Shown here in pieces: positions 33,867 through 64,000 of a stretch of 64,000 bases of DNA (position 1 is its first letter; each line of letters begins with the position of its first letter). The notes beneath the pieces were generated by a model. It was given only the letters and a program-made list of their open reading frames with translations, did no database searches and was not told where the DNA came from. The stretch comes from Lobosporangium transversale (lineage: Eukaryota), in NCBI RefSeq assembly GCF_002105155.1, contig NW_019028996.1, positions 682,001 to 746,000 on the forward strand, written 5' to 3'. The translations under genes were made by a program, and so were the position numbers.

Positions 33867-33999
33867 AGTATTTCGCCCATATTTCTAGAGCATTCCTTGC
33901 AACAGGATATTAACTAGTATAAATAGGTCTACTTTCTATCTAGTTCTGTAGCATAGTTCCCCCTGAATAAAGATACCTTTATTGCACCCTTAGATCCCC

Positions 34000-44525: not shown

Positions 44526-45253
44526 GACTACAGTGGTCATCAAAAGTCATTCAATGAATTAGGAATTTCGACATTCTCATTCCTTTCCCAATTTGATCTT
44601 GCTTGTCGCTAATGAAACTTACGTAGCGAGTTCGACCATCGACAATGTCACTCCTACTACAATGTCAATGAGCTCCTGTAGCTAATTGAAAATTTAGATG
44701 AATGCCAATTATTGGCATCTCATTGAATGCCATTTGAAGAAAATCGGGAGCTTTGCTTTATTTGTTTTTTTTTCTGTTCTTCAGTAATGTGTACGACCTC
44801 CTTTCTTGCGATGTAGCTTCTCTACCCTTCGTGGCTGTCACGAACAGCAAGCAATGTCTAGCTCATGAATTGATGAATGACTTTTGTCTGATTCGAATCT
44901 GAAAAAGATCACGTGTGCTTGATTAATTTGTTCCGCTCATTTCCTTCACTCATTCCTCCATGCATAGTTTGCCTGTCAAGCCAAGTCGCGTTGCAAGCGA
45001 AATCACTATAATAATTTTGTGCAACATTGTATTTCGCCCATATTTCTAGAGCATTCCTTGCAACAGGATATTAACTAGTATAAATAGGTCTACTTTTCTA
45101 TCTAGTTCTGTAGCATGGTTCCCCCTGAATAAAGATACCTTTATTGCACCCTTAGATCCCCCTAGAACACTACCTTGACTTTTGCATTGGTAGCAAAGGA
45201 AACCACGACCACCCCCAGAGAACTACAATTACCATTGAATTTCACCCCTCGCC

Positions 45254-46174
45254 ATGGAACACTTGAATAACGCCCTTTCGTCCATCGATCTTCCTCTGAA
45301 CATTCGCGAAGCCATAGCTACTGCTTTTAATCAGGCCCTCTCTACTGCTAAAGTCAACGAAGCCGCTGAGAATGACCTAGCCAGAACCCTCGCCACGGTC
45401 CTAAAGCCACAGAAGCCTACGCCTTACGAAGGAGCTATTAACGCTGTTGCAGCCTTAAACTTTGTCGACAGCCTGGAGGAGTATTACACTATTGTCACAC
45501 TCACGCCATCCAAATGGGTTCGATACGCTGTCCTCAGTCTCAATGGCGAAGCCAAGGCATGGTGGAGAGATTCCGGGTTGAATCTCGATACACCTTGGGC
45601 TGACTTCCGTAAAGCATTCCTCCGTCAGTTCACCCCTCCAGATTCTGCGAATGCAGCTCGCCGAGCGTTGGATAAACTTCGTCAGGGAAGGATGAGTGTG
45701 GCAGAATATACGAGCAAGTTTAGAAGCCACCTACGTCTGGCTACAAATCTCGACAAAGACTCTGCTTTGCAAAAATACATGCTAGGCCTTGAGCCCGAAA
45801 CAAGCAAGCAGGTAAGACTTAGACAGCCAGAGACGTTGGACGATGCCATTGAGCAGGCGACCATTGTCCACAGTATTCTACATCCCATCGATGCCACCCC
45901 TGTATCCGCTACCCCGAACGCCTTATCACCCCATCATGAGAATAATTCTGGCCCTACACCAATGGATCTCGATAACATGAGAATGTTGGTTGCCAACCTG
46001 TACACCTCTCTCCATCAGCAACGACCAAACAGAAACCACTCCAAGCCAAGCTCGCTACCCAAGCTCACAGCAGCTGAACGAGAACGTTGCGTTCGTGAGG
46101 GGCGTTGTTTCAGATGCCGGAACCGAGGTCATAGAGCCTTTGTGCACAAATATAACATCCATGCCCCTTTCTGA
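45254..46174 (+). CDS. gag: Gypsy gag
   Basis: Protein identical to 34991-35911. Confidence 0.92.
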   Translation: MEHLNNALSSIDLPLNIREAIATAFNQALSTAKVNEAAENDLARTLATVLKPQKPTPYEGAINAVAALNFVDSLEEYYTIVTLTPSKWVRYAVLSLNGEAKAWWRDSGLNLDTPWADFRKAFLRQFTPPDSANAARRALDKLRQGRMSVAEYTSKFRSHLRLATNLDKDSALQKYMLGLEPETSKQVRLRQPETLDDAIEQATIVHSILHPIDATPVSATPNALSPHHENNSGPTPMDLDNMRMLVANLYTSLHQQRPNRNHSKPSSLPKLTAAERERCVREGRCFRCRNRGHRAFVHKYNIHAPF

Positions 46175-47165
46175 TCACTCTATTGCTCCCACTGCATCTA
46201 CTTCCTTACATCTACTCTCTAAGTATTCACCTCATCCTGATCCCCATTCCCCTACTCATTCCTCATTGCTAAAAAACAATCCCCTCTCCGACCCTATTTT
46301 CCCCTCCACTGATCCTTTCACTGTTTCCACTTCACTCACTTCCACTCATTCATCTACCCCTAGTTCATCCAATCGCCACTCCCATTGTCGTAACGAAATT
46401 CGCCTTCAATCCTTCAGCCTTACCTATGACAAACATAAAAACTCTCGCCGACTCCTTACTTTCATTGGAGCAGTGAATGGTCGACCTGCGCGCATTCTTG
46501 TAGATGGAGGGGCCGAAGGCAATGTCATAAGTTCCTCTTTCTGCGAGAACACACATGTTCCGCTAATTGAGGGTAGACCCATTCCTGTCATTCTTCCCAA
46601 CGGTACCGAGACAATTGCTCAGCACACAGCCACGTTCACCCTCGCCCGCAACGCGTATCAGGATAAAATCAACGCCATTGTTTATCCTCTATCCAAATAC
46701 GACCTAATTTTGGGTAAACCATGGCTGACGGATATCAACCCTCGCATCAATTGGCGAACAAATGATCTGCATTTTGAATACCAAGGTACCCCGGTCTTGT
46801 GGCCTTGCACTGGCATCGACAGGAAGCCTAGACAGCGATCTTCCGTCATATCTGCTCTTAACTTCCTTACCGTTGCCTCGGAACCTGATGCCTCTGTATT
46901 CCTCGCCCAAGTTCGAGTTCCAGTACCTGTCTCTAGCAGTAGTTCTGAACTACCGGACTCTATCAAGCAAATCGTTCAAGTCGAATTCCCTGATGTCTTT
47001 CCTACAACGCTTCCTGATGGCCTTCCCCCTGACAGAGGTGATAGCATGCGTATAGAGACTGACCCTTATGCTGACCCACCTGTCCGACCTGTCATCAGAT
47101 TGTCGATCGCTGAGCTTGATGAACTGAAGAAGCAGCTAACTGCAAAAGTCAAGGTAGTGTTCTAG
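45990..47165 (+). CDS. Gypsy pol, protease part
   Basis: ILVDGGAEG; one substitution versus copy 1 (YDKH vs YAKH). Confidence 0.85.
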   Translation: MPTCTPLSISNDQTETTPSQARYPSSQQLNENVAFVRGVVSDAGTEVIEPLCTNITSMPLSDHSIAPTASTSLHLLSKYSPHPDPHSPTHSSLLKNNPLSDPIFPSTDPFTVSTSLTSTHSSTPSSSNRHSHCRNEIRLQSFSLTYDKHKNSRRLLTFIGAVNGRPARILVDGGAEGNVISSSFCENTHVPLIEGRPIPVILPNGTETIAQHTATFTLARNAYQDKINAIVYPLSKYDLILGKPWLTDINPRINWRTNDLHFEYQGTPVLWPCTGIDRKPRQRSSVISALNFLTVASEPDASVFLAQVRVPVPVSSSSSELPDSIKQIVQVEFPDVFPTTLPDGLPPDRGDSMRIETDPYADPPVRPVIRLSIAELDELKKQLTAKVKVVF

Positions 47166-47334
47166 GGGGATCTAAGGGTGCAATAAAGGTATCTTTATTC
47201 AGGGGGAACTATGCTACAGAACTAGATAGAAAGTAGACCTATTTATACTAGTTAATATCCTGTTGCAAGGAATGCTCTAGAAATATGGGCGAAATACTAT
47301 GTTGCACATAATTATTAGAGTGATTTCGCTTGCA
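47141..47334 (-). mobile_element. Antisense solo LTR-A inside pol
   Basis: TGCA...TGCA with TSD CTAAC; removal restores KKQLTDLLQK in frame. Confidence 0.95.
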
Positions 47335-50058
47335 CTAACTGATCTTTTACAAAAAGGATTAATCTCACCGAGCACCTCACCATACGGTGCTCCAGTCCTC
47401 TTTGTGAAGAAAAAGGATGGCTCGCTTCGAATGTGTGTTGATTATCGGGGCCTGAACAAGATCACAAAGAAAAACAGGTACCCCTTACCACGGATCGATG
47501 AATTGATCGACAGATTCAGAACAGCTAAATGTTTTACCAAGCTGGATCTACTCTCGGGCTATCATCAAATGCGTGTCCATCCTGATGATAAACACAAGAC
47601 CGCGTTCCGAACTCGCTATGGCCACTACGAGTTTAACGTCGTACCTTTCGGTCTTACAAATGCACCTGCAGCGTTCTCGACTATGATGCGTAACGTACTT
47701 GATCCACTTCTTGATAAATGTGTTGTTGTGTATCTCGATGATATTTTAATTTACTCCGATAACGAGAAAGATCACTTAGAGCACATCCGAAAAGTACTCT
47801 CCCTCTTGCGTCAAGCTGGGCTTTATTGTAAATTATCCAAGTATTCCTTCATGCAGGAAGAGACTGAGTTCCTAGGCCATGTCATATCCAAGGATGGACT
47901 CAAGACGAATGGCGGACTTGTCAAGGCAATAAGGGAATGGCCAGTACCAACAACCCAACGACATGTGATGCAATTCCTTGGTTTGACTAATTTTTACCAT
48001 CAGTACATTTCTCATTACGCTGATATTGCTCTTCCCCTCACACAATTGTTAGGCTGCAATAAGGAATTCCACTGGGGAAAATCTCAACAAGACGCCTTTG
48101 AGACTTTGAAAAGAGCAGTGAGCTCAGCACCAGTTCTTAGGATATTCGATCCTGCCCTCTCTACAGCAGTCGAAACAGACGCTTCAGGCTTTGCAATTGG
48201 TGCTGTCTTGTTCCAGACGGACCAAAATGGTGAATCACGACCAGTAGCTTTTACTTCACGCAAGCTCAACCCAGCGGAACGCAACTATCCTACACACGAA
48301 CAAGAACTGCTGGCTGTGGTGCATGCTCTGAAGACATGGCGATACTACCTTGATGGTTCTCACTTTGTCGTTTATACCGACCATGCCACTCTACAACATT
48401 TTCCTAGCCAGCCGAACTTGACTCGCAGACAAGCAAGATGGATGGAGTTGCTTCAAGAGTATGATTTCGTATTCAAGTATAAACCTGGTAAAGATAACGT
48501 CGTCCCTGATGCTCTTTCACGAAGACCGGACCTCAAGGACTTGGAGGCTACACCTACTACTTTGAACTCCTTGGTTATCAATCTAGACCCTGGCATTCGA
48601 AAACAACTAGCCAGTTGCTACCTACACGATCCAATTCTAGGTCCCCTCGTGCATCAGTATAAGGATGCCTCTACCCCGGATCGTTACTTCGTGGTAGATG
48701 GTCTACTCTGGATCAACGCTGGACAAGGCCCTCGCCTCTGCATACCCAAGGACGACGGACTCCGTTCACAACTCTTGCATGACGCTCACGACGCTCCTAT
48801 ATCAGGCCACTTGGGACTCGATAAAACGTACAGTAGCATGCGACGAACATATTTTTGGCCACGCATGGCGAGGGATATAAAAAAATACATTGCTTCCTGT
48901 GAGCAATGCCAGCGTAACAAGCCTTCACTAAAGCCTCCTGCAGGGCTTTTCCAACCTTTGGCAATTCCAAGCCAACGATGGGATACTGTAACAATGGACT
49001 TCATTGTCAAGCTTCCGAAGACAGCCAGAGGTTTTGACGCGATTACGGTCTTTGTGGACAAACTGTCCAAGCAAGTTCATTTCTGCGCTAGCCGAACTAC
49101 CGACACTGCCTCTGATGTTGCACGACTCTTTTTCGACAATGTTTTTAGACTGCACGGCATGCCTCGGACAATTGTGTCAGATAGAGATTCACGTTTCACC
49201 GGCAAGTTCTGGACAACGTTGATGAAGCTCATGGGCACCAAACTTAACATGTCTACTGCCTTCCTTCCACAATCAGACGGACAAACAGAGCGCGCCAACA
49301 GAACATTAGAAGAAATGCTCCGCTCTTACATATCGTACAAGCAAAACGACTGGGATCTTTTACTGCCTATGATGGAGTTCGCATACAACAACTCTGTCAA
49401 TCCTACGACAGGCTTCTCCCCATTCTTTCTGAACTATGGTCACCATCCACTAGTCCCTGGATCTCTTTTAAAGCCACCTGATACCAATGTTCCGGCTGTC
49501 AGTGATTTTGTTCGAACCCAGTCGATGAATTTGGCGCTAGCTCAGGATGCCATCATCGAAGCGCAGAATAGGCAAAAGGCCCAAGCGGACAAAACTCGCA
49601 GGCCTGCTACGTTTGCTGTGGGTGACATGGTGCTCTTAAGCTCGGAAAACATCTCTGTCGCGGGACATAAAAATAGGCCGTCGCAGAAACTGGAACCTGA
49701 GTACATAGGCCCTTACAAGATCATTTCGAAGGTCAATGAAAATGCCTACAAGCTGGAACTACCGCCTGACATGCATCAACATCCAGTCTTTAATGCCGAT
49801 CTGCTTCGCCCCTATATTGAGTCACCTCGTGAATTCGGCGACCGCTTACCACCACGCCCTGCCCCCGAGCTTGTAGATGGAGAAGAGGAGTATGAAGTCG
49901 ACAAAATCATTGACTTCAAAATGTTTGGCAAAACTCCTAAGTGGCTCGTTCTTTGGAAAGGCTATCCATTAGATGAAGCCACTTGGGAAACAAAATCTTC
50001 GCTCGCAAACGCTAAAGAGGCGCTTGCCGTCTTTGAGGCTTCAAGAAAAACAAGATAA
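47299..50058 (+). CDS. pol: Gypsy pol, RT-RNase H-integrase-chromodomain part
   Basis: Same 919-aa ORF as copy 1; the first ~12 codons come from the inserted LTR. Confidence 0.95.
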
Positions 50059-51295
50059 TAGGTTTCTTCATGACGGGAAGGATGCAAGCGAAATCACTAT
50101 AATAATTTTGTGCAACATAGTATTTCGCCCATATTTGTAGAGCATTCCTTGCAACAGGATATTAACTAGTATAAATAGGTCTACTTTTCTATCTAGTTCT
50201 GTAGCATGGTTCCCCCTGAATAAAGACACCTTTATTACACCCTTAGATCCCCCTAGAACACTACCTTGATTTTTGCACGCGTCTCCTAGTTTTCTAGCTC
50301 CGTGAATAGCTCCAAGGATTCTAGAAGAGCTATAAACCAATAACCAAGACTTATAGTGCCAAGGAACCTTGCAATAAGATTGCACCAGATATCTTCCTCG
50401 GATCCTGTGTATTAAGTTAACTCAACACTTGAAGTTCCGCATATGGTAAAAGTCCTTAGGAAATATTTGAGTAAGCTTTATTTAGAGTTCTTGAAGCGCG
50501 TCTCCGCTTCAGTCAAACAAGTATAAATATGATAGATTTGTAACATAGTAAACCTCAGTCTGCAATAAAACTATTCTTGAATCTCCTAAGCTCATTTTTG
50601 TTCCTAAATCACTTACCTTCTCTTGCAATTGTCCTGTCAGTCCTTGACGGTAATTGCACGCGAGGTTGATACGGGTATATTTAGATCCATTCTGGCAGTT
50701 CAAGAATACATCAGATCGAGCAGTGCTCCTATTCGAACCATTCGAATCGAATTCGAATAGATATCAGGATTCGAATGCTATTCGAACCGCTCGAATGATT
50801 CGAGCCATTCGAACCGTTCGAATGATTCGAACCATTCGAACCATTCGACATTCGAACCATTCGACATTCGAACCGTTCGAATGATTCGAACCATTCGAAC
50901 CATTCGACATTCGAACCGTTCGAATGATTCGAACCATTCGACCCTCGAATCATTCGAACCATTCGAACCATTCGACACTCGAACCATTCGAACCATTCGA
51001 TACACGATAGGAAATGGTAATTCTAAACTTGTGTTTGTAGTTTTCATTATGTTTCATCTCCTGCCTTATTTCTCTTTCCTTCTTTTTCCTCTTTTGCCTT
51101 TCTTCCTGTGGTTCCCCGAAATTTAATCAAATAAAAGACTACCCCTTTTAACTTATTCATGCATGATTTGGTTTGAACTTGTTGCTCTTTTTTTTTTTTT
51201 TTTCCTAATTTCCTAATTCCCACGCCAATTAGTAGTGTTATCTTAATCTTTTTCTTTCCGTTTTTTTTTTTTTCTTTCATTTACTGATTATTTTC

Positions 51296-51756: not shown

Positions 51757-54431
51757 ATGACAAAGAGCAGCCGACGCCGTATTGCAACTTCTGAAAGCGA
51801 GGAGGAAGAGCATGAAGAAGAGGTAAATATTAACTACTTTGACAACATACTGTGACTGTTAAGAAAGATAGTTAACCTTAAAAACTTTTTAACGGTTCTA
51901 TGACACTTTGATGGATTTAAGGTTAATGATGTGAGTAATATGTCTATGTCGACCACTTTCGACATCACTGACGGTAGCATGGGTACGGAAAGCATGGGAA
52001 GTGTCAGTATCAGTAGCAAGAAAGGCACCCGAGTTTGGGGGTGGGCCATTAAAAACAAATGGGCTGAACGCGTTGAAACAAAAAAAGGCGCAGTCATACG
52101 CTGTCGTTTCCCTGGCTGCAAGATGGAATATACGTCAAGTACGATGACAACCAGTGGAATCAATTCACATTTGGCTAATAAGCACCATATTAGAAAAGAT
52201 AGCCACGTGAATGATGGTAGCCTCTCCCGGCAAGGCCCATTGGATGTAATGTTTTCTTCTTCTCCAAGGGTATTTGACCCTACAAGATTCGATGATTTGC
52301 TTGTGCGTTTTGTCGTTACGACGAAGGAGCCATTCGCTGTTGTAAAGAGTGCAGCTTTTCAAGAGCTTCTAAATCATGCAACAATGGCCGCAATGGCTCA
52401 AGTCAAGCTCCCCTCAGATGATACCATGGCAAACAAGGTAGCTCTCCTTTTTCTTCTACTCCACTTTTTTTGGCTTTATTTTTTTATTATTTATCTATTA
52501 TTATCATCTTTATTTATTTCTACGTTATTACTTTCCCTCCACTGGAGCCTAACAAAGTTTACTAATTTGAAATAGACGAGACGAAAATATGATGATATGG
52601 AACAAGAAGCGATTGCCTTATTTGAAGGCATCAATAAGATTTCATTGACTGCTGATAGCTGGACAAGTCCTTTTCAGGACGACTTCTTAGGAGTCACGGC
52701 TCATTGGATCGACAAGGATTGGCGCCAAAAAGAGCTAGTGATAGGGTTTGAGCCTCTACTCGGAATGCACACAGGCGAGATGCAAACGTGTTATACAATA
52801 CTGACTCAAACCTTTGAGGAGGGCTCAACTATCACGCGCACCCCAGGCGCCAAGACGCCAAGCCCAAGTGCCAAGACACCAAGCCCCAACCCTATCAATT
52901 ATCAGTATAAATAGTCCACTACGTTATAGCCAAATAAAGTATCCTTTGACCTTCGATTCCACCTAAGATCACCTTTGATTGTTACTATTTACACGAGAAC
53001 CTCGCCGAAGCTCTCGTCAGTGTTATTAAGCGCTTTAAAATTGGCGATAAGCTCCAAAGCATCACTACCGATAACGCATCAAACATGACCAAAATGGTGC
53101 GAGAAGTTGTGAATCATCCCGAAGCAGTTGAATGGTAAACAATTGTACTACTGAACTAACTTTGGCTTCTATAATAGTTACATGTCTCTAACTTTGGTAT
53201 TTAAAAAACTACGATTAGGCCACTCATAGATAACCTGTACCATATACCATGCCTTGGTCATATTATAAACCTGGCTGTACAAGCAATGCTAGGTCCTAAC
53301 GGCTTAAATGATCCAGCCCTTGAGAATGACAACGGCTACTCTGACGATAGTGGGGACGAAGACACAATTGGGTCGATGGAAGTAACGCTAAGCACATTGC
53401 AGAAGCTGAGGAAAGGCATCATGAAGATCAGGCAAGTATTTCGATATGATTATGATAGCAAATAACATGGGTGACAGGAAACTCAGCTAACCATCGGTTA
53501 CATTTACCACTTGCTGTGTAGATCATCACCGCAAAGGATGTATCAGTTTGGCCGTGTTTGTGATATTGTGAAGAGCCCAAAGCTTGAGTTGATAAGGGAC
53601 AACAGAACACGATGGAACTCTACTTCCACAATGGTTGAAAGAGCAATAACTCTAAAAGATGCTTACCAGTCTATGTGTAAGAACGAAGCTATCCTAGCGC
53701 CATACATTCTGAAGGATGAGGAATGGCTATATCTTCAAAAGCTCCAGTTGTTGCTTAGTCGATTCGTCGCTATCACTAACATCGTGTCTTCCAGCGTGGG
53801 TTATCCGACGATTAACCGAGCAATGTCCGTATACAACTTAATGATCGATCATTTAGAAGAGTTTATTGAAGAAGAAAAAGACCCCTCACTTAACCAGGCG
53901 GCAAGTCAGGGATTACAAAAGCTTCTGAACTATTATTCTAAAACAGATACCACCTCGGTTTATGCAGTAGCCACTGCCATGGATCCAAGAATGCGATTTA
54001 ACTGGTGGGAGGTAAATGACTGGGGTGTATACATCGAAAGCAGCAAAAATATGGTGAAAGAGGTATGGGAAAAAGAATACAAAGGAAAAGAAGGCCCCGC
54101 CCAAGTGCCTGCTGACCAAGAGTATGAAATGAAGCTCTATGGAATCAGTACGCAAGCTGGAGAGCTTGAAGAGTATGTCCGTGAAGGAAGTTCGCTAGTT
54201 GCCAGCAAGCAGGAGCCTCCAGAGTTGGTGCACTGGCGCTCGCAGAATGAACGCTGGCCCAATTTAGCAAATATGGCACGAGACTACCTCGCTATACCTG
54301 TGACATCGACCCCAGCTGAACGTTGTTTCTCCCAGGCTAAGTTCATTATGTCCGCTGAGAGAAATAGTCTTCTCCCTACAACGATCCAACGATTAGTAGT
54401 TTTGGATTCTTGGTTGAAAGAGATGTCTTGA
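51757..54431 (+). pseudogene. hAT transposase (spliced), interrupted by a solo LTR
   Basis: BED finger VWGW..CRFPGC..HLANKH, LTADSWTS, ITTDNASNM, CLGH, TRWNST, ARDYLAIPVTSTPAERCFS. Confidence 0.9.
52781..52993 (+). mobile_element. 213-bp solo LTR of a third family
   Basis: TGCAAA...TTTACA, TATAAATA, AATAAA, TSD CGAGA; removal restores HTGENLAE. Confidence 0.9.
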
Positions 54432-54441
54432 TTGAGACATA

Positions 54442-56069
54442 CACTATCATGCAAAACTGATTCAATAATTCATTCCCATGTGCATTTCTTTTTTTCATTC
54501 CTAGAAACCGTATATGCATACACCACTCATACTTTGGTTTAATAAAGCTCCCGTCTTCTTCTACGTCCTAGTGATGCGTTGTGACATTAGCTTGTCTCAT
54601 TTGAATAGCTAATGACTTTTTTGTTCATGCAGGTCATTGAATCAGTTTCACATGTGGTCTAAAATGTTGCCCATGGCAACTTTTGGACGTCATTTAATGC
54701 CAGTAAAAAAAGGACTTTTCTCTCTTTCCTTTATGAACACTTGCTTAACTCTTAACTATACCTTCACAGAATATGAGACCCACTCCACAAAGGAAAGTCA
54801 ACGAAGCCAGGAGGTTAATGATGGGAGGCATGTCTACTAGAGAAACTGCTGCTAGTGTTGGTATATCAATAGCGACGGCCACCAGGATCTATGCACATAA
54901 TAAGGAGTACATGCCAGTCAATAAAGGCGGTCGACCAAGGAAAGTACCTAGAGGTATCATGCAGTATCTTAAGGTGAACATGAAACGAGGTACACTCAAG
55001 TCTGCAGTTGAGGCCACCGCCAGAGCCAACCAGCTCATACCAGCGGCTGTTTCTGAGACCACCGTTAGACGACGGCTCAAGGAGTTAGGATTGACAGCAA
55101 AGAGGCGTGTACATAAGCCAGCTTTACGTCGACGACATATTAAAGCTCGTTTGCATTTTATCAAAAAGTATAAGGAATGGACTCTGGAAGATTGGAAAAA
55201 GGTTATTTGGTCAGATGAATCGAAAATAAACCGAATCTGCTCTGATGGCGTGCAGTGGATCTGGGGCGACAATCCGGGACGCCTCACTCGCAGGTCGGTG
55301 CAAGGCACTGTCAAGTTTGGGGGTGGTAATGTTAAAGTGTGGTCATGCTTCTCATGGCACGGACCTGGATACATTGCAAAGATTGACAATAATATGGACG
55401 CACAACTTTACATCAAACTACTGCAGGAGGATCTACAGATGTCGCTTGGTGACTGGGGCCTAACTAAAAGCGATATCGTCTTTCAGCACGACAATGACTC
55501 GAAGCACACGGCGAAGATTGTTAGGAAGTATTTGGAGTCAGTACATCTGACAGAAGAGGAAGGTACACTTCTAGAGTGGCCAGCACAATCCCCTGACCTC
55601 AACCCTATTGAACACATGTGGGCAGAATTGGATAGGCGGCTCTCTAGGTATCCGGAGCGAGCTAAGAGCTGTGATGAACTATGGGAGCGAATATCGGTTG
55701 AATGGTACAGGATCCCAGTGGACTTCTGCCGCAAACTCATCATAGATATCCATAAGAGACTCCAAGCTGTCAGTGATGCCCATGGTTGGAATACTATCTA
55801 TTGATGTAAGGTTATGGCTCACAAAAGAATAAAGATCTTTGGCCACCGAATGGGCACATGTGAAACTGATTCAATGACCTGAATGAACAAAAAAGCCATT
55901 AGCTATTCAAATGAGACAAGCTAATGTCACAACGCATCACTATGACGTAGAAGAAGACGGGAGCTTTATTAAACCAAAGTATGAGTGGTGTATGCATATA
56001 CGGTTTCTAGGAATGAAAAAAAGAAATGCACATGGGAATGAATTATTGAATCAGTTTTGCATGATAGTG
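54442..56069 (+). mobile_element. Intact Tc1-like transposon with 215-bp TIRs
   Basis: TA TSD; TIRs 54442-54656 and 55855-56069. Confidence 0.95.
54773..55804 (+). CDS. Tc1 DDE transposase, 343 aa, uninterrupted
   Basis: GRPRK, WSDESK, FQHDNDSKH, WPAQSPDLNPIEHMW. Confidence 0.95.
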   Translation: MRPTPQRKVNEARRLMMGGMSTRETAASVGISIATATRIYAHNKEYMPVNKGGRPRKVPRGIMQYLKVNMKRGTLKSAVEATARANQLIPAAVSETTVRRRLKELGLTAKRRVHKPALRRRHIKARLHFIKKYKEWTLEDWKKVIWSDESKINRICSDGVQWIWGDNPGRLTRRSVQGTVKFGGGNVKVWSCFSWHGPGYIAKIDNNMDAQLYIKLLQEDLQMSLGDWGLTKSDIVFQHDNDSKHTAKIVRKYLESVHLTEEEGTLLEWPAQSPDLNPIEHMWAELDRRLSRYPERAKSCDELWERISVEWYRIPVDFCRKLIIDIHKRLQAVSDAHGWNTIY

Positions 56070-56073
56070 TATA

Positions 56074-56420
56074 CAGTGCTCCTATTCGAACCTTTCGAAT
56101 CGAATTTCACTGATATCGAATTCGATTCGAATGAGGTAAGCTCAAATTCGATTCGAATTCGATTAGATAACAAAATTCGAATGCTATTCGAATGGTTCGA
56201 ATGATTCGAGCGAACTATTGGCACAATAGTAAATGATAATTTTAAACTTTTTTTTTTATTTTTTTTTGATTGGGTGTAAAGTACAAGGACCATACTTTCG
56301 CTACGCGTAACCAGAGGCCCTATTCGAACCATTCGAACCATTCGAATCGAACCAGGATATGGCTTATTTGAATCGATTCGAATTTATCACGATTCGAATT
56401 CGAATCGAATAGGAGCACTG
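56074..56420. mobile_element. 347-bp non-autonomous hAT (MITE) nested in the parent hAT
   Basis: Same TIRs as the parent; TSD GACATATA, left copy split by the Tc1 insertion. Confidence 0.9.
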
Positions 56421-56721
56421 GACATATATAGTTTTCTAAATAAGAGTAAAAGTATCTCTCAAAACTAGCAAATCAAATAAAACTTTTTACAATACAACTC
56501 TGAACCAGGGTTATGAACTATATCACCCCTACCACTTCACAATTCAAACCACCACGCTCCTATTCGAATCATTCGAACCATTCGACACTCGAACCATTCG
56601 AACCATTCGAACCATTCGACACTCGAACTATTCGAACCATTCGAACCATTGGAATCGAACCAGGATATGGCTTATTCGAAGCTATTCGAATTCGAACCGT
56701 TCGATTCGAATAGGAGCACTG

Positions 56722-58608
56722 AGTAGGTGTAGCCTCCGAGTCCTTGAGGTCCGGTCTTCGTGAAAGAGCATCAGGGACGACGTTATCTTTACCAGGTTTA
56801 TACTTGAATACGAAATCATACTCTTGAAGCAACTCCATCCATCTTGCTTGTCTGCGAGTCAAGTTCGGCTGGCTAGGAAAATGTTGTAGAGTGGCATGGT
56901 CGGTATAAACGACAAAGTGAGAACCATCAAGGTAGTATCGCCATGTCTTCAGAGCATGCACCACAGCCAGCAGTTCTTGTTCGTGTGTAGGATAGTTGCG
57001 TTCCGCTGGGTTGAGCTTGCGTGAAGTAAAAGCTACTGGTCGTGATTCACCATTTTGGTCCGTCTGGAACAAGACAGCACCAATTGCAAAGCCTGAAGCG
57101 TCTGTTTCGACTGCTGTAGAGAGGGCAGGATCGAATATCCTAAGAACTGGTGCTGAGCTCACTGCTCTTTTCAAAGTCTCAAAGGCGTCTTGTTGAGATT
57201 TTCCCCAGTGGAATTCCTTATTGCAGCCTAACAATTGTGTGAGGGGAAGAGCAATATCAGCGTAATGAGAAATGTACTGATGGTAAAAATTAGTCAAACC
57301 AAGGAATTGCATCACATGTCGTTGGGTTGTTGGTACTGGCCATTCCCTTATTGCCTTGACAAGTCCGCCATTCGTCTTGAGTCCATCCTTGGATATGACA
57401 TGGCCTAGGAACTCAGTCTCTTCCTGCATGAAGGAATACTTGGATAATTTACAATAAAGCCCAGCTTGACGCAAGAGGGAGAGTACTTTTCGGATGTGCT
57501 CTAAGTGATCTTTCTCGTTATCGGAGTAAATTAAAATATCATCGAGATACACAACAACACATTTATCAAGAAGTGGATCAAGTACGTTACGCATCATAGT
57601 CGAGAACGCTGCAGGTGCATTTGTAAGACCGAAAGGTACGACGTTAAACTCGTAGTGGCCATAGCGAGTTCGGAACGCGGTCTTGTGTTTATCATCAGGA
57701 TGGACACGCATTTGATGATAGCCCGAGAGTAGATCCAGCTTGGTAAAACATTTAGCTGTTCTGAATCTGTCGATCAATTCATCGATCCGTGGTAAGGGGT
57801 ACCTGTTTTTCTTTGTGATCTTGTTCAGGCCCCGATAATCAACACACATTCGAAGCGAGCCATCCTTTTTCTTCACAAAGAGGACTGGAGCACCGTATGG
57901 TGAGGTGCTCGGTGAGATTAATCCTTTTTGTAAAAGATCAGTTAGTGCAAGCGAAATCACTCTAATAATTATGTGCAACATAGTATTTCGCCCATATTTC
58001 TAGAGCATTCCTTGCAACAGGATATTAACTAGTATAAATAGGTCTACTTTCTATCTAGTTCTGTAGCATAGTTCCCCTGAATAAAGATACCTTTATTGCA
58101 CCCTTAGATCCCCCTAGAACACTACCTTGACTTTTGCAGTTAGCTGCTTCTTCAGTTCATCAAGCTCAGCGATCGACAATCTGATGACAGGTCGGACAGG
58201 TGGGTCAGCATAAGGGTCAGTCTCTATACGCATGCTATCACCTCTGTCAGGGGGAAGGCCATCAGGAAGCGTTGTAGGAAAGACATCAGGGAATTCGACT
58301 TGAACGATTTGCTTGATAGAGTCCGGTAGTTCAGAACTACTGCTAGAGACAGGTACTGGAACTCGAACTTGGGCGAGGAATACAGAGGCATCAGGTTCCG
58401 AGGCAACGGTAAGGAAGTTAAGAGCAGATATGACGGAAGATCGCTGTCTAGGCTTCCTGTCGATGCCAGTGCAAGGCCACAAGACCGGGGTACCTTGGTA
58501 TTCAAAATGCAGATCATTTGTTCGCCAATTGATGCGAGGGTTGATATCCGTCAGCCATGGTTTACCCAAAATTAGGTCGTATTTGGATAGAGGATAAACA
58601 ATGGCGTT
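56722..58608 (-). mobile_element. Gypsy copy 3, internal fragment (end of protease, solo LTR 57946-58138, RT-RNase H)
   Basis: Near-identical to 32609-34494; bounded by a hAT TIR on the left and a PLE pseudo-LTR on the right. Confidence 0.93.
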
Positions 58609-58663
58609 TGATAAGTAGGATGGGTTTTTTTGTGAAAAAGTGGAAAAAGTGACTGAGAGTGAG

Positions 58664-58722
58664 AAAGAAGACTGCGGGACAAGTGCTTGTTTCGATCTTT
58701 TCTCTTCAGCCTTGTCTTCTTT
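58664..58722 (-). ncRNA. Type I hammerhead ribozyme, copy 1
   Basis: aaagaagac-aa-gg CUGAAGA ga-aaaga-uc GAAA caag-ca-cuug UC cc-gca-gucuucuuu. Confidence 0.88.
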
Positions 58723-59060
58723 TTATACTTTTTTCACGCCTCTCGGACTCTCGGGAGAGAGGGTGAACGGTAACCCAAAAAGGAATCATTATCCAAATCG
58801 GGTCTCATCCGGAAACTCCTAGATTGTTTCAGATTGAGTCAGTTATGACGTAAGATCTAAAATTAATCTAAGTATAGATTACAAATAATTTATCCGAACG
58901 GTTAGACTAAAAAAGGAAGGTCTAAGTCCGAAAAAATCCTAGGATATATGTATCATTTCCGTGGTACGCGTCGACCTAGCAAACAGGTTTATTTGGAGCC
59001 AGCAAACCAGTTATTTGTGGCTTTCTACTCCTTAACTAGGGTCACGTGACAAAATTTATT

Positions 59061-59197
59061 TTTAGGTATCTATTTTTAGGGTCTATTTTTAGGGTTTTTT
59101 AGGGTTTTTTAGGGTTTTTTAGGGTTTTTAGGGTTTTTTAGGGTTTTTTAGGGTTTTTAGGGTTTTTTAGGGTTTTTTAGGGTTTTTTAGGGTTTTT
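59061..59197 (+). repeat. Telomere-like tract ending in about 10 regular T5-6AGGG units
   Basis: Mostly TTTTTTAGGG from 59095. Confidence 0.93.
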
Positions 59198-59251
59198 GAT
59201 AAGTAGGATGGGTTTTTTTGTGAAAAAGTGGAAAAAGTGACTGAGAGTGAG

Positions 59252-59310
59252 AAAGAAGACTGCGGGACAAGTGCTTGTTTCGATCTTTTCTCTTCAGCCT
59301 TGTCTTCTTT
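59252..59310 (-). ncRNA. Type I hammerhead ribozyme, copy 2
   Basis: Identical to copy 1. Confidence 0.88.
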
Positions 59311-59648
59311 TTATACTTTTTTCACGCCTCTCGGACTCTCGGGAGAGAGGGTGAACGGTAACCCAAAAAGGAATCATTATCCAAATCGGGTCTCATCCGG
59401 AAACTCCTAGATTGTTTCAGATTGAGTCAGTTATGACGTAAGATCTAAAATTAATCTAAGTATAGATTACAAATAATTTATCCGAACGGTTAGACTAAAA
59501 AAGGAAGGTCTAAGTCCGAAAAAATCCTAGGATATATGTATCATTTCCGTGGTACGCGTCGACCTAGCAAACAGGTTTATTTGGAGCCAGCAAACCAGTT
59601 ATTTGTGGCTTTCTACTCCTTAACTAGGGTCACGTGACAAAATTTATT

Positions 59649-59749
59649 TTTAGGTATCTATTTTTAGGGTCTATTTTTAGGGTTCTATTTTAGGGTTTTT
59701 TTAGGGTTATTTTTAGGGTTTTCTTTTAGGGTTATTTTTAGGGTTAGGG
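59649..59749 (+). repeat. Element-encoded degenerate telomere-like tract
   Basis: Irregular TnAGGG units ending TTAGGG; same sequence at 63821-63921. Confidence 0.9.
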
Positions 59750-59905
59750 TCAAGGAGGGTCAGCTCTGGCCTATACCATGAACCTGAGAAAACTCCTAAA
59801 AAATCTAAAGAAAACTTACTAAGTCTAAAAAACCGGACCTATTTTGTCGGGGATGAGGGCTAGTTATAATATAAGATACAGAAGAGATCTCATTGAACTA
59901 GTCAT

Positions 59906-61411
59906 CTACAATCGACTCCTTATTGGGGCGGATTGGAGAATCTTTTTATTATAGGTGTTCAACTGGTTGCGCAGGTTGGAGCCTTTATAAATTATCCATG
60001 TGGTTTGTGTATTCTCATAACGGGCAGGTTTGAGGGTATGGATATCTCGTAGAATCATACGTCCAAACTGTTCAAGTTTGTCACGTCCAGGGATGTTATG
60101 GAGGAACATTTTTTTGATAATAGTATCATTTTTCTGAGACGAGGGTGCCGGGTACAAAAGAGTATTCCGTTCATCGTATGAGTGTAATCTGAGTTGATTG
60201 TTGATTACATGTGAGGGGTAGTTTCTATTAAGAAGATGTTGGGCAAATTGTGCTGTGGCATGGGTGTGGAAAGAAGACTGACTAGAGTTTCTAATTAGTC
60301 TTTGGTTTTCACCATTAATCCAGTTAAAAACATATTTCCTAGGGTAGTATGTATCTGGATCAGTGTATAGGTGTTTATTAACGGGTTTGTCGAAAGGAGC
60401 AATAGTAAATCGGGTTGGACTAGTATTGTTATCGACAGAAATAAGAAGGTCGAGCATAACTACTTGTTGACCATTGTTACCATGGTCGATAGTGATATTA
60501 AGACTTTGACAAGAGGCATAAATCTGATGAAGTTTAATGTCAATGTATGGTTTCAAAAGATTGAATGTCTCTTTAGACCAGGGAAGGTTATCATGTTTGG
60601 TAGTTCTGATTATGGCAAAGCCATCATCTATATACCGGAACAGGGTGATGTCAAAGAAATCGAGTTTATAGAAAAACATTGGGGAATTAGTGTCAACTGG
60701 AAGGTTGTCAGGAAAAACTCCATGGAATTGTTGTTGTTTCTCTACGCAGCATGCAAAGAGGCGGGCTATGGTGGGTGCCATGGGAGTTCCCATAGCTAAG
60801 CCTTTGACTTGTCTGTAATTATTTGTAAGGTCAGAGACAAGGCAGTTCTTATTAACCCATTCTGCGAGTTTCAGACATATTTGGATTTCATAATTGTAAG
60901 AATGATTGCAGAAGTAGTGTAGTATGGTTTTTCTGGCTTCTTCAAAGTCGATGTTACCATACATGTTGATGACGTCGAAAGCTGCTAATGAGTAATGGCA
61001 GTAAGGATCAAAGTCAAAATTTTCTAGATAACGTATTAGTGTGGGGGTGTCGGGAAGATCTCTAGGGAACTCATTAAGTAGAGGGCGCAGGTTTCTATCG
61101 ACAAACTGACTAATAGTGTGTGTTATCCAAGGGAAAGAGGGGACTATAGGTCTAGCACCGGGTGGTGACTTATGTATTTTAGGTAAAAGATACATAACTG
61201 GGACAGTATAGAAGTTAGGATTGGTTCTAACATTATCTCTTATTAGTTTAGCTTCTGAGAGTAATTTATTTTTAATTCTAAGAGGACTAAGATTGACTAT
61301 AGAAAAGAGTGAGTTTATCATATTGTCAATGGAGAACGAAGGGCACGGGACATAACAGGAAGTATCTGTTAGAAGTTTCGTAGTCTGGGATGTATACCAG
61401 TCTAGGTCCAT
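59906..61411 (-). CDS. Penelope-like reverse transcriptase with no GIY-YIG endonuclease; true N-terminus lies further upstream
   Basis: YLLPKIHK..RPIV, FDVINMYGNI, QVKGLAMGTPMAP, FRYIDDGF, MLDLLI, KPVNKHLY; ORF ends after the thumb with no GIY..YIG. Confidence 0.93.
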   Translation of the reverse strand: MDLDWYTSQTTKLLTDTSCYVPCPSFSIDNMINSLFSIVNLSPLRIKNKLLSEAKLIRDNVRTNPNFYTVPVMYLLPKIHKSPPGARPIVPSFPWITHTISQFVDRNLRPLLNEFPRDLPDTPTLIRYLENFDFDPYCHYSLAAFDVINMYGNIDFEEARKTILHYFCNHSYNYEIQICLKLAEWVNKNCLVSDLTNNYRQVKGLAMGTPMAPTIARLFACCVEKQQQFHGVFPDNLPVDTNSPMFFYKLDFFDITLFRYIDDGFAIIRTTKHDNLPWSKETFNLLKPYIDIKLHQIYASCQSLNITIDHGNNGQQVVMLDLLISVDNNTSPTRFTIAPFDKPVNKHLYTDPDTYYPRKYVFNWINGENQRLIRNSSQSSFHTHATAQFAQHLLNRNYPSHVINNQLRLHSYDERNTLLYPAPSSQKNDTIIKKMFLHNIPGRDKLEQFGRMILRDIHTLKPARYENTQTTWIIYKGSNLRNQLNTYNKKILQSAPIRSRL

Positions 61412-61498
61412 AATAGTGAGTCCTAAGTTTTTTATCAGCAGGGAATGATAATTTATTCGAGGTCATTAGATTTCTGTAGGATTTTTTTTTTTTTTTTA

Positions 61499-62752
61499 TT
61501 AATTATGGTTTGTAGCATCGAACAGAACATTAGCTAGATTAATATCTAGTTTATTAATATTCCTACAAAGTTGGTTACGCAATTTCTTTAGTTCTGAGCT
61601 CAGAACAACATAGTTGGGAGGTTTATGTATATTGAAATTGACTCCTTTATTTAAGACTTGAAGAATATCATGGGGGATGGATTGTACGGAAGACATATTG
61701 TTGACTCCGACAAAATCATGTAAATCTACTTTTTTTGTTTCTGAGGGGATGGGGCTTTTTTCACGGGGCCTTTTCCTTTCTTTACATGGGTGGTTTTCTT
61801 GGAGGACGTTGGGGGACCACCTTTCTTCTTGTCTTTCTTCGCCATCGATGGGCCTTTTGGTCCTTTGTATTTGTTGGTGTCGTTCTGTCGACGTGATGGC
61901 TTGGGTTTGCTTGGCTTCTTCTTCGAGGCGTCCTTCTTGGTATTCTAGAGGGAAAGTAGAGTTGATCTTAGAATAGATTATATTTAATCGTGGAGCAAAC
62001 CAAAGGGAAACAATTATCTTGAATACCTTTAATCCAAGATTTAATTGCTGGAATTCTGCAGTGGCTCGTAATACTTGCACTTGAGCAGAAAACTCAATAG
62101 CAGTGGCACGAATCAGCTTGTAGGTGAAGTCTTTACCCAGATTATTCAGATGAGAATTGTTTTCAACGGCCACAAGGGCAGATGAAAGGGTGTCCGCTAG
62201 CTGTCTGGGGAGGGTGTCATTGAGTTCACTTTGGCATTGTTGGATGATATTTGCTTTGTCAGCTTTAATGGCCGATACTAACAAATTGTCAAACGAAGTG
62301 CTAAGTGTAGCAAGGACGTCCTTTGACAGGGTAACACGGTTATTGTTGACAGTAAGATGTCCCCAATAGCCTAGTTGTGTCTTAGCGTTGACTTCACGCA
62401 GAATCTTCTGAGCCATTCGGATTTTATCCAAAAGAATGGCCGCCTTATTGACAAATTTGCTTAAGATGTCTGCGGCAACCCTGTCAGTCATCGTTCCCTT
62501 TTTGAAAGAGGGAAGATAGGAACCAGGGTTCAGAGAGGTGTCACTATTCCCAATATGATTATTGAGACGAGCGACGAGCTGCTCGAGGGTGGGAAGGTCT
62601 GCCGGTGCAGTCCCTCCTCCCATCTCGGCATCGGCATCGATCATAGCCTGACCTGGAACTTGTTGACCTGGGGTGACTTGGAAGACATCCTGGTTTCCAC
62701 GGGCAGAGCTTGACGATGAGGAGGGGCCGGGGGCAGCGTGAGTATTGACCAT
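61499..62752 (-). CDS. PLE ORF1 (helical protein; probable intron 61945-62026 gives a basic tail with stop at 61726-61728); the unspliced frame runs into the RT N-terminal region
   Basis: ATG 62752 just after the pseudo-LTR; unspliced C-terminus VNNMSS..LQVLNKGVNF resembles the pre-RT motif of PLEs. Confidence 0.7.
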   Translation of the reverse strand: MVNTHAAPGPSSSSSSARGNQDVFQVTPGQQVPGQAMIDADAEMGGGTAPADLPTLEQLVARLNNHIGNSDTSLNPGSYLPSFKKGTMTDRVAADILSKFVNKAAILLDKIRMAQKILREVNAKTQLGYWGHLTVNNNRVTLSKDVLATLSTSFDNLLVSAIKADKANIIQQCQSELNDTLPRQLADTLSSALVAVENNSHLNNLGKDFTYKLIRATAIEFSAQVQVLRATAEFQQLNLGLKVFKIIVSLWFAPRLNIIYSKINSTFPLEYQEGRLEEEAKQTQAITSTERHQQIQRTKRPIDGEERQEERWSPNVLQENHPCKERKRPREKSPIPSETKKVDLHDFVGVNNMSSVQSIPHDILQVLNKGVNFNIHKPPNYVVLSSELKKLRNQLCRNINKLDINLANVLFDATNHN

Positions 62753-62830
62753 CTTGAGAGGAACTTGAGGGTTTTTGATAAGTAGGATGGGTTTTTTTGT
62801 GAAAAAGTGGAAAAAGTGACTGAGAGTGAG

Positions 62831-62889
62831 AAAGAAGACTGCGGGACAAGTGCTTGTTTCGATCTTTTCTCTTCAGCCTTGTCTTCTTT
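62831..62889 (-). ncRNA. Type I hammerhead ribozyme, copy 3 (5' pseudo-LTR of the full element)
   Basis: Identical to copy 1; predicted cleavage after GUC, between 62845 and 62844. Confidence 0.88.
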
Positions 62890-63227
62890 TTATACTTTTT
62901 TCACGCCTCTCGGACTCTCGGGAGAGAGGGTGAACGGTAACCCAAAAAGGAATCATTATCCAAATCGGGTCTCATCCGGAAACTCCTAGATTGTTTCAGA
63001 TTGAGTCAGTTATGACGTAAGATCTAAAATTAATCTAAGTATAGATTACAAATAATTTATCCGAACGGTTAGACTAAAAAAGGAAGGTCTAAGTCCGAAA
63101 AAATCCTAGGATATATGTATCATTTCCGTGGTACGCGTCGACCTAGCAAACAGGTTTATTTGGAGCCAGCAAACCAGTTATTTGTGGCTTTCTACTCCTT
63201 AACTAGGGTCACGTGACAAAATTTATT

Positions 63228-63368
63228 TTTAGGTATCTATTTTTAGGGTCTATTTTTAGGGTTCTATTTTAGGGTTTTTTTTAGGGTTATTTTTTAGGGT
63301 TTTTTTTAGGGTTATTTTTAGGGTATAGGGTTTTTTTATTTTTAGGGTTATTTTTAGGGTTATTTTAG
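63228..63368 (+). repeat. Degenerate telomere-like tract between pseudo-LTRs 3 and 4
   Basis: Starts like the encoded tract, then diverges into irregular TTATTTTTAGGG-type units. Confidence 0.9.
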
Positions 63369-63423
63369 GATAAGTAGGATGGGTTTTTTTTGTGAAAAAG
63401 TGGAAAAAGTGACTGAGAGTGAG

Positions 63424-63482
63424 AAAGAAGACTGCGGGACAAGTGCTTGTTTCGATCTTTTCTCTTCAGCCTTGTCTTCTTT
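63424..63482 (-). ncRNA. Type I hammerhead ribozyme, copy 4
   Basis: Identical to copy 1. Confidence 0.88.
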
Positions 63483-63820
63483 TTATACTTTTTTCACGCC
63501 TCTCGGACTCTCGGGAGAGAGGGTGAACGGTAACCCAAAAAGGAATCATTATCCAAATCGGGTCTCATCCGGAAACTCCTAGATTGTTTCAGATTGAGTC
63601 AGTTATGACGTAAGATCTAAAATTAATCTAAGTATAGATTACAAATAATTTATCCGAACGGTTAGACTAAAAAAGGAAGGTCTAAGTCCGAAAAAATCCT
63701 AGGATATATGTATCATTTCCGTGGTACGCGTCGACCTAGCAAACAGGTTTATTTGGAGCCAGCAAACCAGTTATTTGTGGCTTTCTACTCCTTAACTAGG
63801 GTCACGTGACAAAATTTATT

Positions 63821-63921
63821 TTTAGGTATCTATTTTTAGGGTCTATTTTTAGGGTTCTATTTTAGGGTTTTTTTAGGGTTATTTTTAGGGTTTTCTTTTA
63901 GGGTTATTTTTAGGGTTAGGG
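63821..63921 (+). repeat. Element-encoded degenerate telomere-like tract of the next copy
   Basis: Same as 59649-59749 and followed by the same tcaaggagggtcagctctgg 3' UTR. Confidence 0.9.
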
Positions 63922-64000
63922 TCAAGGAGGGTCAGCTCTGGCCTATACCATGAACCTGAGAAAACTCCTAAAAAATCTAAAGAAAACTTACTAAGTCTAA

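What the first reader, a model, noticed from the sequence alone, without database searches (positions are those of the whole stretch)
62831..62889. Complete type I hammerhead ribozyme in every pseudo-LTR
Seen on the sense (minus) strand: core CUGAAGA, short stem II (GA/UC, loop AAAGA), GAAA, stem III ACAAG/CUUGU, GUC cleavage triplet, and stem I GG/CC extended through an AA/GCA internal loop into a 9-bp helix AAAGAAGAC/GUCUUCUUU. Identical at 58664, 59252, 62831 and 63424. Known: PLE pseudo-LTRs often carry minimal hammerheads. Inferred: tandem copies would cut read-through RNA into ~590-nt and ~3.6-kb units that could circularise, as retrozymes do.
Basis: partly seen in the sequence, partly recalled or inferred. 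Interest (0 to 1): 0.85.

Follow-up and report, generated by a model that had tools for sequence, protein, structure and literature searches.

The report
Hammerhead ribozyme in fungal telomeric retroelement
A short RNA motif predicted to cut itself sits in four identical copies in a fungal jumping gene that likely attaches to chromosome ends, a known pairing, and because the gene's inserted ends lie about 70 bases past the predicted cut, the gene is likely copied from RNA that is uncut or re-joined.

Summary
The motif is real: four identical minus-strand copies with a full type I hammerhead core. It lies in the pseudo-LTRs of a tandem, endonuclease-less Penelope-like retroelement of a Mortierellaceae fungus, interleaved with (T5-6AGGG)n repeats. 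Two metagenomic relatives with about 50% RT identity keep all 17 pairs and the core, while the upstream flank is near chance identity. No pair varies, so there is no covariation. Rfam misses it, and the active monomer fold is predicted 4-6 kcal/mol above a rival fold. All 3 insertion ends in the window lie 68-77 nt past the cut site, at a telomere-complementary repeat, so the copied RNA had that site intact. Cleavage and circles are untested. The two ~590-nt units differ in their spacers, which argues against a copied 590-nt circle. Hammerheads in telomeric fungal PLEs are published; this one has an unusual shape and a divergent RT clade. Side finding: a conserved 3n+1 intron likely switches ORF1 versus RT output. 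This scan noted both the inside-the-end cut site and an intron switch before, on other genomes.

The parts
62831..62889 (-). Type I hammerhead motif (the finding); predicted cut 62845/62844, 92 nt upstream of the ORF start
   Evidence: conserved in L001 and L002
63424..63482 (-). Identical hammerhead copy; predicted cut 63438/63437
59252..59310 (-). Identical hammerhead copy; predicted cut 59266/59265
58664..58722 (-). Identical hammerhead copy; predicted cut 58678/58677
62768..62776 (-). Single telomere-complementary repeat AAAAACCCT at +69..+77 from the cut; inferred priming site of reverse transcription
   Evidence: +77..+86 in L001, +69..+77 in L002; insertion ends map here
58607..59090 (-). 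Copy A: 5'-truncated copy (pseudo-LTR only); its 3' end (+71) is joined to a broken Ty3/gypsy element with an ATCAA microhomology
   Evidence: the joint is not bridged by any contig laid
59091..59188 (+). Ten perfect T5-6AGGG repeats (8 x T6, 2 x T5), G-rich strand pointing to the window's right end; likely added by telomerase
   Evidence: host telomere motif not verified
59189..63281 (-). Copy B: more-than-unit-length copy (3579-nt unit plus about 510 nt), 3' end at +77
59661..59746 (-). Element-encoded array of variant telomere-like repeats in the 3' region, preceded by a motif TGAYCCTCYTTGACCC kept in L001 and L002
59906..62752 (-). ORF1-RT reading frame of a Penelope-like element without GIY-YIG endonuclease; interrupted in this copy
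   Evidence: single 992 and 1018 aa ORFs in L001 and L002
61945..62026 (-). 82-nt GT..AG intron, open in the RT frame; splicing shifts the frame to a 72-aa basic tail ending at 61726
   Evidence: spliced contig in run X7; same site, 3n+1 length in L001 and L002
61428..61514 (-). Damaged or mis-assembled stretch of this copy with in-frame stops
   Evidence: X1 contig holds 130 letters in place of 82; X2 and X3 lack one base at 61428
63282..63368 (-). Spacer of jumbled variant repeats between copies B and C
63369..64000 (-). Copy C: 3' part of a further copy, 3' end at +68, running off the window
56722..58606 (-). Broken Ty3/gypsy element on which the array starts

Best explanation
The motif is a type I hammerhead sequence, kept under selection in the pseudo-LTR of an endonuclease-less Penelope-like retroelement that likely adds itself to chromosome ends of a Mortierellaceae fungus; it is predicted to cut only slowly or as a dimer, and the RNA that gets reverse-transcribed is likely the uncut read-through transcript. 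Steps. (1) Shown: motif, copies, conservation, no endonuclease, insertion ends at +68 to +79. (2) Inferred: a G-rich chromosome 3' end (telomere, broken DNA or an earlier truncated copy) pairs with the AAAAACCCU repeat about 70 nt downstream of the cut site and primes the RT there. (3) Follows from (1): the RT then copies back across the cut site, so the site was intact in the template. (4) Inferred: copies stop in the internal repeat array, telomerase extends them, and the next copy is added. (5) Predicted: a second ACAAG in stem I competes for the CUUGUC strand and keeps most monomers off; cutting, when it happens, separates unit RNAs from read-through transcripts and leaves a 92-nt leader before ORF1. 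Odds: hammerhead of an EN-less PLE about 0.95; telomere attachment about 0.85; uncut precursor as the main template about 0.55.
For: Core and 17 of 17 pairs invariant in window, L001 and L002, with changes only at N7, loop II, loop III, H17 (C or A) and the stem I internal loop; hammerhead identity 53-57 of 59-62 nt, against 170 of 300 upstream (shuffle 160) and 577 of 900 in the RT coding region. 3 of 3 insertion ends in the window at +68, +71, +77 and a further joint at +79 in contigs of X2 and X3; none at the cut. The order cut site, telomere unit about 65-85 nt on, ATG is kept in L001, L002 and in L006, L007, L015, L019, which carry a different hammerhead. Active monomer fold 3.8-6.1 kcal/mol above the rival fold in all contexts tried; the window's dimer fold (-25.3) is below two monomer minima (-22.6). 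PMC6431247 describes a hammerhead followed by a short reverse-complement telomeric stretch as the attachment end of EN-less PLEs. PMC11167929 reports, for an EN+ PLE in vitro, internal RT initiation, no effect of hammerhead mutants on insertion, and protein-dependent cleavage.
Against: No cleavage was measured. No pair covaries in the three sequences, so the helices rest on complementarity and core spacing alone. No Rfam hammerhead model hits the motif in the window or in L001/L002. Nearest-neighbour energies ignore tertiary contacts and Mg, so the 'off' bias may be overstated; the tested fungal PLE hammerhead (Serpula) is active as a monomer (PMC4209133). The dimer fold I drew for L001 is poor (-14.8), and in all three the dimer minimum is lower than the drawn active dimer. 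A re-joined circle explains the same junctions and the more-than-unit copy equally well. The chromosome end is not seen: the window stops inside the array and no genome is held. The gypsy joint is not bridged by contigs. Four sister-clade loci with at least 180 nt assembled upstream of the telomere unit (L003, L012, L017, L020) show no CUGANGA there, so the ribozyme may be dispensable in this clade.
Confidence: 0.55

Rival explanations
1. Circle model: two hammerheads in a read-through transcript cut out one unit (3579 nt here, about 3627 nt in intact copies), the ends are re-joined, and the RT primes at +69..+77 on the circle and copies more than one round.
For: Copy B is longer than one unit and crosses two intact cut sites. 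A linear cut-to-cut RNA would carry the priming repeat near its 5' end and could template only about 70 nt. The model was proposed for PLEs in PMC4209133. A rival 'off' fold would stabilise a circle.
Against: No circle evidence; a circle's joint equals the genomic tandem sequence, so contigs cannot show it. Unprocessed RNA was the dominant substrate for an EN+ PLE in vitro (PMC11167929). Read-through from an upstream pseudo-LTR or a template switch also gives more-than-unit copies.
Confidence: 0.25
2. Structural role only: the fold is kept as a binding or presentation site for the RT or ORF1 protein next to the priming repeat and seldom or never cuts.
For: Stems are conserved in sequence, not only in pairing, as for a protein-binding site; stems I and II next to the core are only 2 bp; the active fold is rare in the predicted ensemble.
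Against: Variation falls exactly at the positions a hammerhead core tolerates (N7, H17 as C or A) and nowhere else in the core; unrelated hammerhead shapes occupy the same place in distant relatives.
Confidence: 0.12
3. The ~590-nt pseudo-LTR units are non-autonomous retrozyme-like circles that spread by themselves.
For: Two tandem pseudo-LTR pairs, 588 and 593 nt cut to cut, each unit with a hammerhead and the priming repeat. One 79-nt contig of run X7 joins the pseudo-LTR end to the start of the internal array, with only 30 letters on the short side.
Against: The two units have different spacers; no run of three or more identical short units is in the window; each short unit is explained as a 5'-truncated copy.
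Confidence: 0.07
4. Chance look-alike of a hammerhead.
For: No Rfam hit; z-score of the 59-mer only -0.65.
Against: Shuffle controls and conservation at about 50% RT identity.
Confidence: 0.01

Closest known systems
Hammerheads of telomere-associated, endonuclease-deficient PLEs of fungi and protists (Cervera and De la Pena 2014, PMC4209133)
   Same: Type I hammerhead in the pseudo-LTR of an EN-less fungal PLE, with helices I and II of unusual size.
   Different: Those are described with a large helix III and monomer activity; this one has a 4-bp near-palindromic helix III, a 2-bp helix II and a split helix I, and is predicted to favour a dimer. I could not see the paper's figures, so an identical shape there is not excluded.
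Terminon/Athena 3' end of bdelloid rotifers (as reviewed in PMC6431247; also PMC8557442)
   Same: Hammerhead followed by a short reverse-complement telomeric stretch; head-to-tail arrays of 5'-truncated copies separated by telomeric repeats.
   Different: 3.6-kb unit, single ORF in intact relatives, fungal host, T5-6AGGG repeat.
Coprina elements (fungal EN-less PLEs; e.g. Coprina-1_Alen, PMC13159263)
   Same: No endonuclease, DKN motif, RT and thumb, direct repeats, telomeric repeats at the borders.
   Different: The RT falls in a 19-row group (support 100) apart from the rows named from Dikarya and Mucor in a FastTree run without reference Coprina sequences; the intron switch is not mentioned in the passages read.
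Metazoan minimal hammerheads and non-LTR retrozymes (PMC4209133; bioRxiv 10.64898/2026.07.22.740005)
   Same: Type I hammerhead in tandem repeats with a palindrome-like helix III suited to dimers.
   Different: Here the repeats are truncated copies of an autonomous element with unlike spacers; helix II is short, not long; circles are not shown.

Membership tests
Type I hammerhead ribozyme | Core CUGANGA, GAA, A15.1-U16.1, C15.2-G16.2, H17 | tested here: met
   all present; only N7 and H17 vary among 3 sequences
Type I hammerhead ribozyme | Three helices round the core, ends open in helix I | tested here: met
   17 pairs complementary in 3 of 3 sequences; helices I-inner and II only 2 bp
Type I hammerhead ribozyme | Covariation in the helices | tested here: inconclusive
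   0 of 17 pairs vary
Type I hammerhead ribozyme | Match to an Rfam hammerhead model (a marker, not the definition) | tested here: not met
   no hit at E up to 5 in the window; of 12 loci only L036 gave a weak hammerhead hit, although 11 of them carry the motif by descriptor
Type I hammerhead ribozyme | Mg-dependent self-cleavage after H17 | not testable with these tools
   no raw RNA reads listed; contigs cannot show ends
Endonuclease-deficient telomeric PLE (Athena/Coprina type) | PLE-type RT with GxKF-like and DKG-like motifs and YIDD | tested here: met
Endonuclease-deficient telomeric PLE (Athena/Coprina type) | No GIY-YIG endonuclease | tested here: met
   no Pfam GIY-YIG hit while control P0109 hits; ORF ends about 100 aa after the thumb in window and L001. 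Pfam also missed the RT itself in the window protein.
Endonuclease-deficient telomeric PLE (Athena/Coprina type) | Partial tandem with pseudo-LTRs, hammerhead followed by a reverse-complement telomeric stretch | tested here: met
Endonuclease-deficient telomeric PLE (Athena/Coprina type) | Position at a chromosome end, repeat equal to the host telomere | not testable with these tools
   no genome held; no Mortierellaceae telomere motif found in searches
Coprina clade | RT groups with reference Coprina elements | tested here: inconclusive
   separate group from named fungal rows; no reference Coprina or Athena sequence was in the tree; long branches
Non-LTR retrozyme | Homogeneous non-coding tandem units, each with a type I hammerhead | tested here: not met
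   units have unlike spacers and belong to a coding element
Non-LTR retrozyme | Abundant small circular RNA | not testable with these tools
   no raw reads

The most novel reading that the evidence does not exclude
The ribozyme carries a built-in off switch (a duplicated ACAAG that captures the cleavage strand), so it fires only as a double hammerhead between two pseudo-LTRs, releasing a unit-length RNA that closes into a circle; the RT primes on the telomere 70 nt past the seam and rolls more than once round, and only intron-retaining RNA encodes that RT. One small fungal element would then explain the ribozyme, the partial tandems and the retained introns of Penelope-like elements together.
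Probability: 0.15. Interest if true: 0.72.

Novelty: new variant of a known kind. Interest (0 to 1): 0.36.

Why it matters
What hammerheads do in Penelope-like elements is still open (PMC8557442 calls it unclear). This element is compact, recent (four identical copies) and from a fungal family that can be cultured, and its junctions already rule out one idea: that the cut makes the 3' end that attaches to the chromosome. It gives a direct test of uncut precursor versus circle. It also adds a hammerhead shape that Rfam does not detect, and a conserved intron that gives a plausible reason why these retroelements keep introns. The system as a whole is of a published kind.

Tried and rejected
No whole genome is held, so chromosome ends and copy number could not be checked. 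Rfam scans found no hammerhead for this motif. Single-protein locus searches in viral and metagenome contigs and an alignment search in viral contigs found no relative; a closer alignment found 52 loci. A DNA pattern gave 0 hits in prokaryotic genomes and 5 in viral contigs, none with stem III or stem I partners, rejected as chance. No RNA holder is on record; X7 is only guessed to be RNA, though it holds a spliced contig. X7 has no contig over the pseudo-LTR body or the hammerhead: a hole in contigs proves nothing. X7's joint 59739/62768 has 30 letters on its short side, under the tool's bar for a bridge. X8's contig over 58607-58724 has 14 differences; the 6 listed are all C>T and the stretch has exactly 14 C, so I read it as a bisulfite-type library and not as a mutated ribozyme. 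A ribosomal frameshift between ORF1 and RT was considered and dropped, because the unspliced frame is one ORF in L001 and L002. Descriptor hits in L048 and L052 were set aside as doubtful (poor pairing, or opposite strand). The 123-nt terminal repeats of L001, L003 and L015 are what any partial tandem gives in an assembly graph and were not counted as circles. The L001 'HHR fold' energy is off by one base and was redone. The ESM Atlas gave no usable hit for ORF1. The maximum-likelihood tree did not finish; FastTree was used. [quoted passage not shown] 2017, Lunse et al. 2016.

Full report
1. Observation. The 59-nt motif is on the minus strand at 62889-62831 and is identical at 63482-63424, 59310-59252 and 58722-58664. 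It reads as 9-bp outer helix I, AA, GG, core CUGAAGA, GA-AAAGA-UC, GAA, ACAA-GCAC-UUGU, C17, CC, GCA, outer helix. Predicted cuts fall after 63438, 62845, 59266 and 58678, which gives units of 593, 3579 and 588 nt. A loose descriptor hit only these 4 places; 100 block shuffles of the window gave 13 loose hits and none with an outer helix of 8 bp or more, and 1 of 20,000 pLTR shuffles did. Rfam gave no hammerhead at E up to 5. The 59-mer has a folding z-score of -0.65 and its minimum fold is not the hammerhead.

2. Host and element. A host gene at 1439-3463 has its best hits (32 of 38, 44-57% identity where coverage is substantial) in Mortierellaceae or unnamed entries among them. The motif lies in a repeat of about 480 nt that flanks a frame at 62752-59906. 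The frame has PLE motifs (LNKGVNF, an [A]DKNLG-type motif, YIDD) and 240 homologues, mostly with RT domains. No GIY-YIG domain follows the thumb. From left to right on the + strand the array is: broken Ty3/gypsy; copy A (58607-59090, pseudo-LTR only); 10 perfect T5-6AGGG repeats; copy B (59189-63281, longer than one unit); a spacer of variant repeats; copy C, running off the window. The G-rich strand points right, as it would towards a chromosome end. That end is not seen and no genome is held. The Mortierellaceae telomere motif was not found in print in searches; Umbelopsis has AAACCCT (PMC13042297, passages).

3. Conservation. An alignment search of metagenome contigs gave 52 loci. A descriptor scan scored 13 or more in 14 of 52; shuffles of the loci up to 5 kb gave 0 in 880,850 nt. 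L001 (52% RT identity) and L002 (49%) carry this same hammerhead. All 17 pairs and the core are invariant, and changes fall at N7, loop II, loop III, H17 (C or A) and the internal loop. Identity is 53-57 of 59-62 nt, against 170 of 300 upstream (shuffled 160) and 577 of 900 in RT coding DNA. This is selection on the motif, but with no varying pair it is not covariation. Ten more distant loci carry other shapes: long helix III (L006, L007, L015, L019), minimal palindromic helix III (L005, L008, L009, L022, L036) and L033; L010 and L021 have minimal motifs below the threshold; L048 and L052 were set aside. In a FastTree of 93 RTs the window, L001, L002, P0001 and P0002 form a group (99) inside a 19-row group (100) apart from rows named from Dikarya and Mucor; no reference Coprina was included. 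Four sister loci lack a core upstream of their telomere unit.

4. Where the element's ends are. All 3 insertion ends in the window lie downstream of the cut: +71 (gypsy joint, ATCAA microhomology), +77 (onto perfect repeats) and +68 (onto variant repeats). Contigs of X2 and X3 show another joint at +79, onto an internal part of the element. These surround a single AAAAACCCT at +69..+77, which is kept in L001 (+77..+86) and L002 (+69..+77), with the ATG at +93, +103 and +93. Relatives with the long-helix hammerhead have AACCCT at +63 to +65 and the ATG at +85 to +87. The repeat is predicted mostly unpaired (0.75-0.98). Reverse transcription that starts there and copies the pseudo-LTR must cross the cut site, so the template had the site intact. 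A cut-to-cut linear RNA cannot be the template. The gypsy joint itself was not bridged by contigs of X1, X2, X7 or X8.

5. Predicted activity. The active monomer fold is 3.8-6.1 kcal/mol above a rival in which GACAAG of helix I pairs with CUUGUC, in all contexts tried for the three sequences; in longer contexts a rod-like fold is lower still. For the window the drawn double hammerhead (-25.3) is below two monomer minima (-22.6) but above the dimer minimum (-30.2); for L002 the dimer minimum has the trans helix III; for L001 the drawn dimer is poor. These are secondary-structure energies only. The invariant AA could instead be a tertiary contact.

6. Mechanism. Shown: motif, conservation, no endonuclease, end positions. 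Inferred: priming by a G-rich DNA end on the repeat past the ribozyme, truncation in the internal array, telomerase extension, repeated addition. I favour an uncut read-through template (0.55) over a re-joined circle (0.25), because the monomer is predicted to be mostly off and because, for the anole PLE, hammerhead mutants did not change insertion and unprocessed RNA was the main substrate (PMC11167929, part 1 of 4 and passages). The more-than-unit copy B fits both. The 590-nt retrozyme idea is weak here: the two short units have unlike spacers.

7. Intron. One X7 contig lacks 62026-61945, a GT..AG intron. The intron is 3n+1 and open in the RT frame in window, L001 and L002; unspliced RNA gives one long ORF in the two relatives, spliced RNA a short ORF1 with a basic tail. 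The window's copy is broken at 61428-61514, where the X1 contig has 130 letters for 82.

8. What is known. PMC4209133 (parts 1-2 of 4 read; 2 of 3 supplementary files searched without hits for fungal genus names, file 1 not searchable, figures not seen) reports type I hammerheads in EN-deficient PLEs of fungi, with large helix III and monomer activity, and proposes circles. PMC6431247 and PMC8557442 (passages) describe the hammerhead plus reverse-complement telomeric stretch, call hammerhead function unclear and intron retention unexplained. PMC13159263, PMC6765202, PMC7857110, PMC10767889 and bioRxiv 10.64898/2026.07.22.740005 were read in passages. The 2007, 2016 and 2017 primary papers were not held, and they or unseen figures and supplements may already show this shape or the intron. 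A search for hammerhead with Mortierella listed 2 unrelated papers; searches listed no paper on this intron by title or abstract start. Hammerhead numbering and core rules are from my own knowledge and the text of PMC4209133. This scan's earlier notes on other genomes report a cut site inside the inserted end (e1-9836887) and an intron switch (e1-9793163); I had reached both readings before seeing them, and they are unchecked notes, not support.

9. Verdict. A real, conserved hammerhead of unusual shape in a telomere-type Penelope-like element from a divergent clade. The system is of a published kind; cleavage and circles are untested. New variant of a known kind, interest 0.36.

Noticed in passing
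window 61945-62026 (-); L001 1405-1504; L002 897-990; candidates L003 1338-1404, L012 861-933, L014 914-995: Intron of 3n+1 length (82, 100, 94 nt) that is open in the RT frame. Unspliced RNA reads as one ORF1-RT protein (992 and 1018 aa in L001, L002); spliced RNA gives a 314-338 aa ORF1 protein with a tail of 27-30 K+R and 1-3 D+E. Spliced form seen in one X7 contig. Candidates in 3 of 4 further loci came from a filter that asked for a basic tail, so they are weaker; none in L006.
   Followed up: partly
window 61428-61514: This copy's ORF is broken here; the X1 contig has 130 letters for 82, the length expected from L002, so most copies are likely intact. Assembly error or real damage is not decided.
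   Followed up: partly
L003 478-740, L020 1300-1564, L012 1-225, L017 2590-2830: Sister-clade elements keep the telomere unit before the ATG but show no hammerhead core within up to 200 nt upstream; L003 and L020 share a structured segment there with no Rfam match. L021 of the same clade has a minimal-type hammerhead at 2694-2756.
   Followed up: partly
window 61130-61443, contigs of X2 and X3: A second, diverged family of the element (29 differences in 313 nt) at low depth in the same runs.
   Followed up: no
window 59195-62800, runs X1-X3: Contig depth falls in steps from the 3' half to ORF1 (about 240 to 118 in X2), as frequent 5' truncation would give; depth is a poor measure of copy number.
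   Followed up: no
window 30887-36329 and 44836-50278; 30246-30440; 57946-58140: Two chromodomain Ty3/gypsy copies 100% alike over 5443 nt in inverted orientation, a solo LTR, and LTR-like inserts inside the pol region of some copies: recent activity.
   Followed up: no
window 53475-56072; 50740-51043 and 56083-56692; 11466-12905: hAT and Tc1/mariner transposase frames (218-nt inverted arms at 54439-54656 and 55855-56072), ATTCGAACC-type repeat arrays on both sides, and an NDC10_II-domain frame.
   Followed up: no
window 58607-58724, run X8: If X8 is a bisulfite library, both CpG sites in the hammerhead (58675, 58693) read as converted, i.e. unmethylated in the main contig.
   Followed up: no
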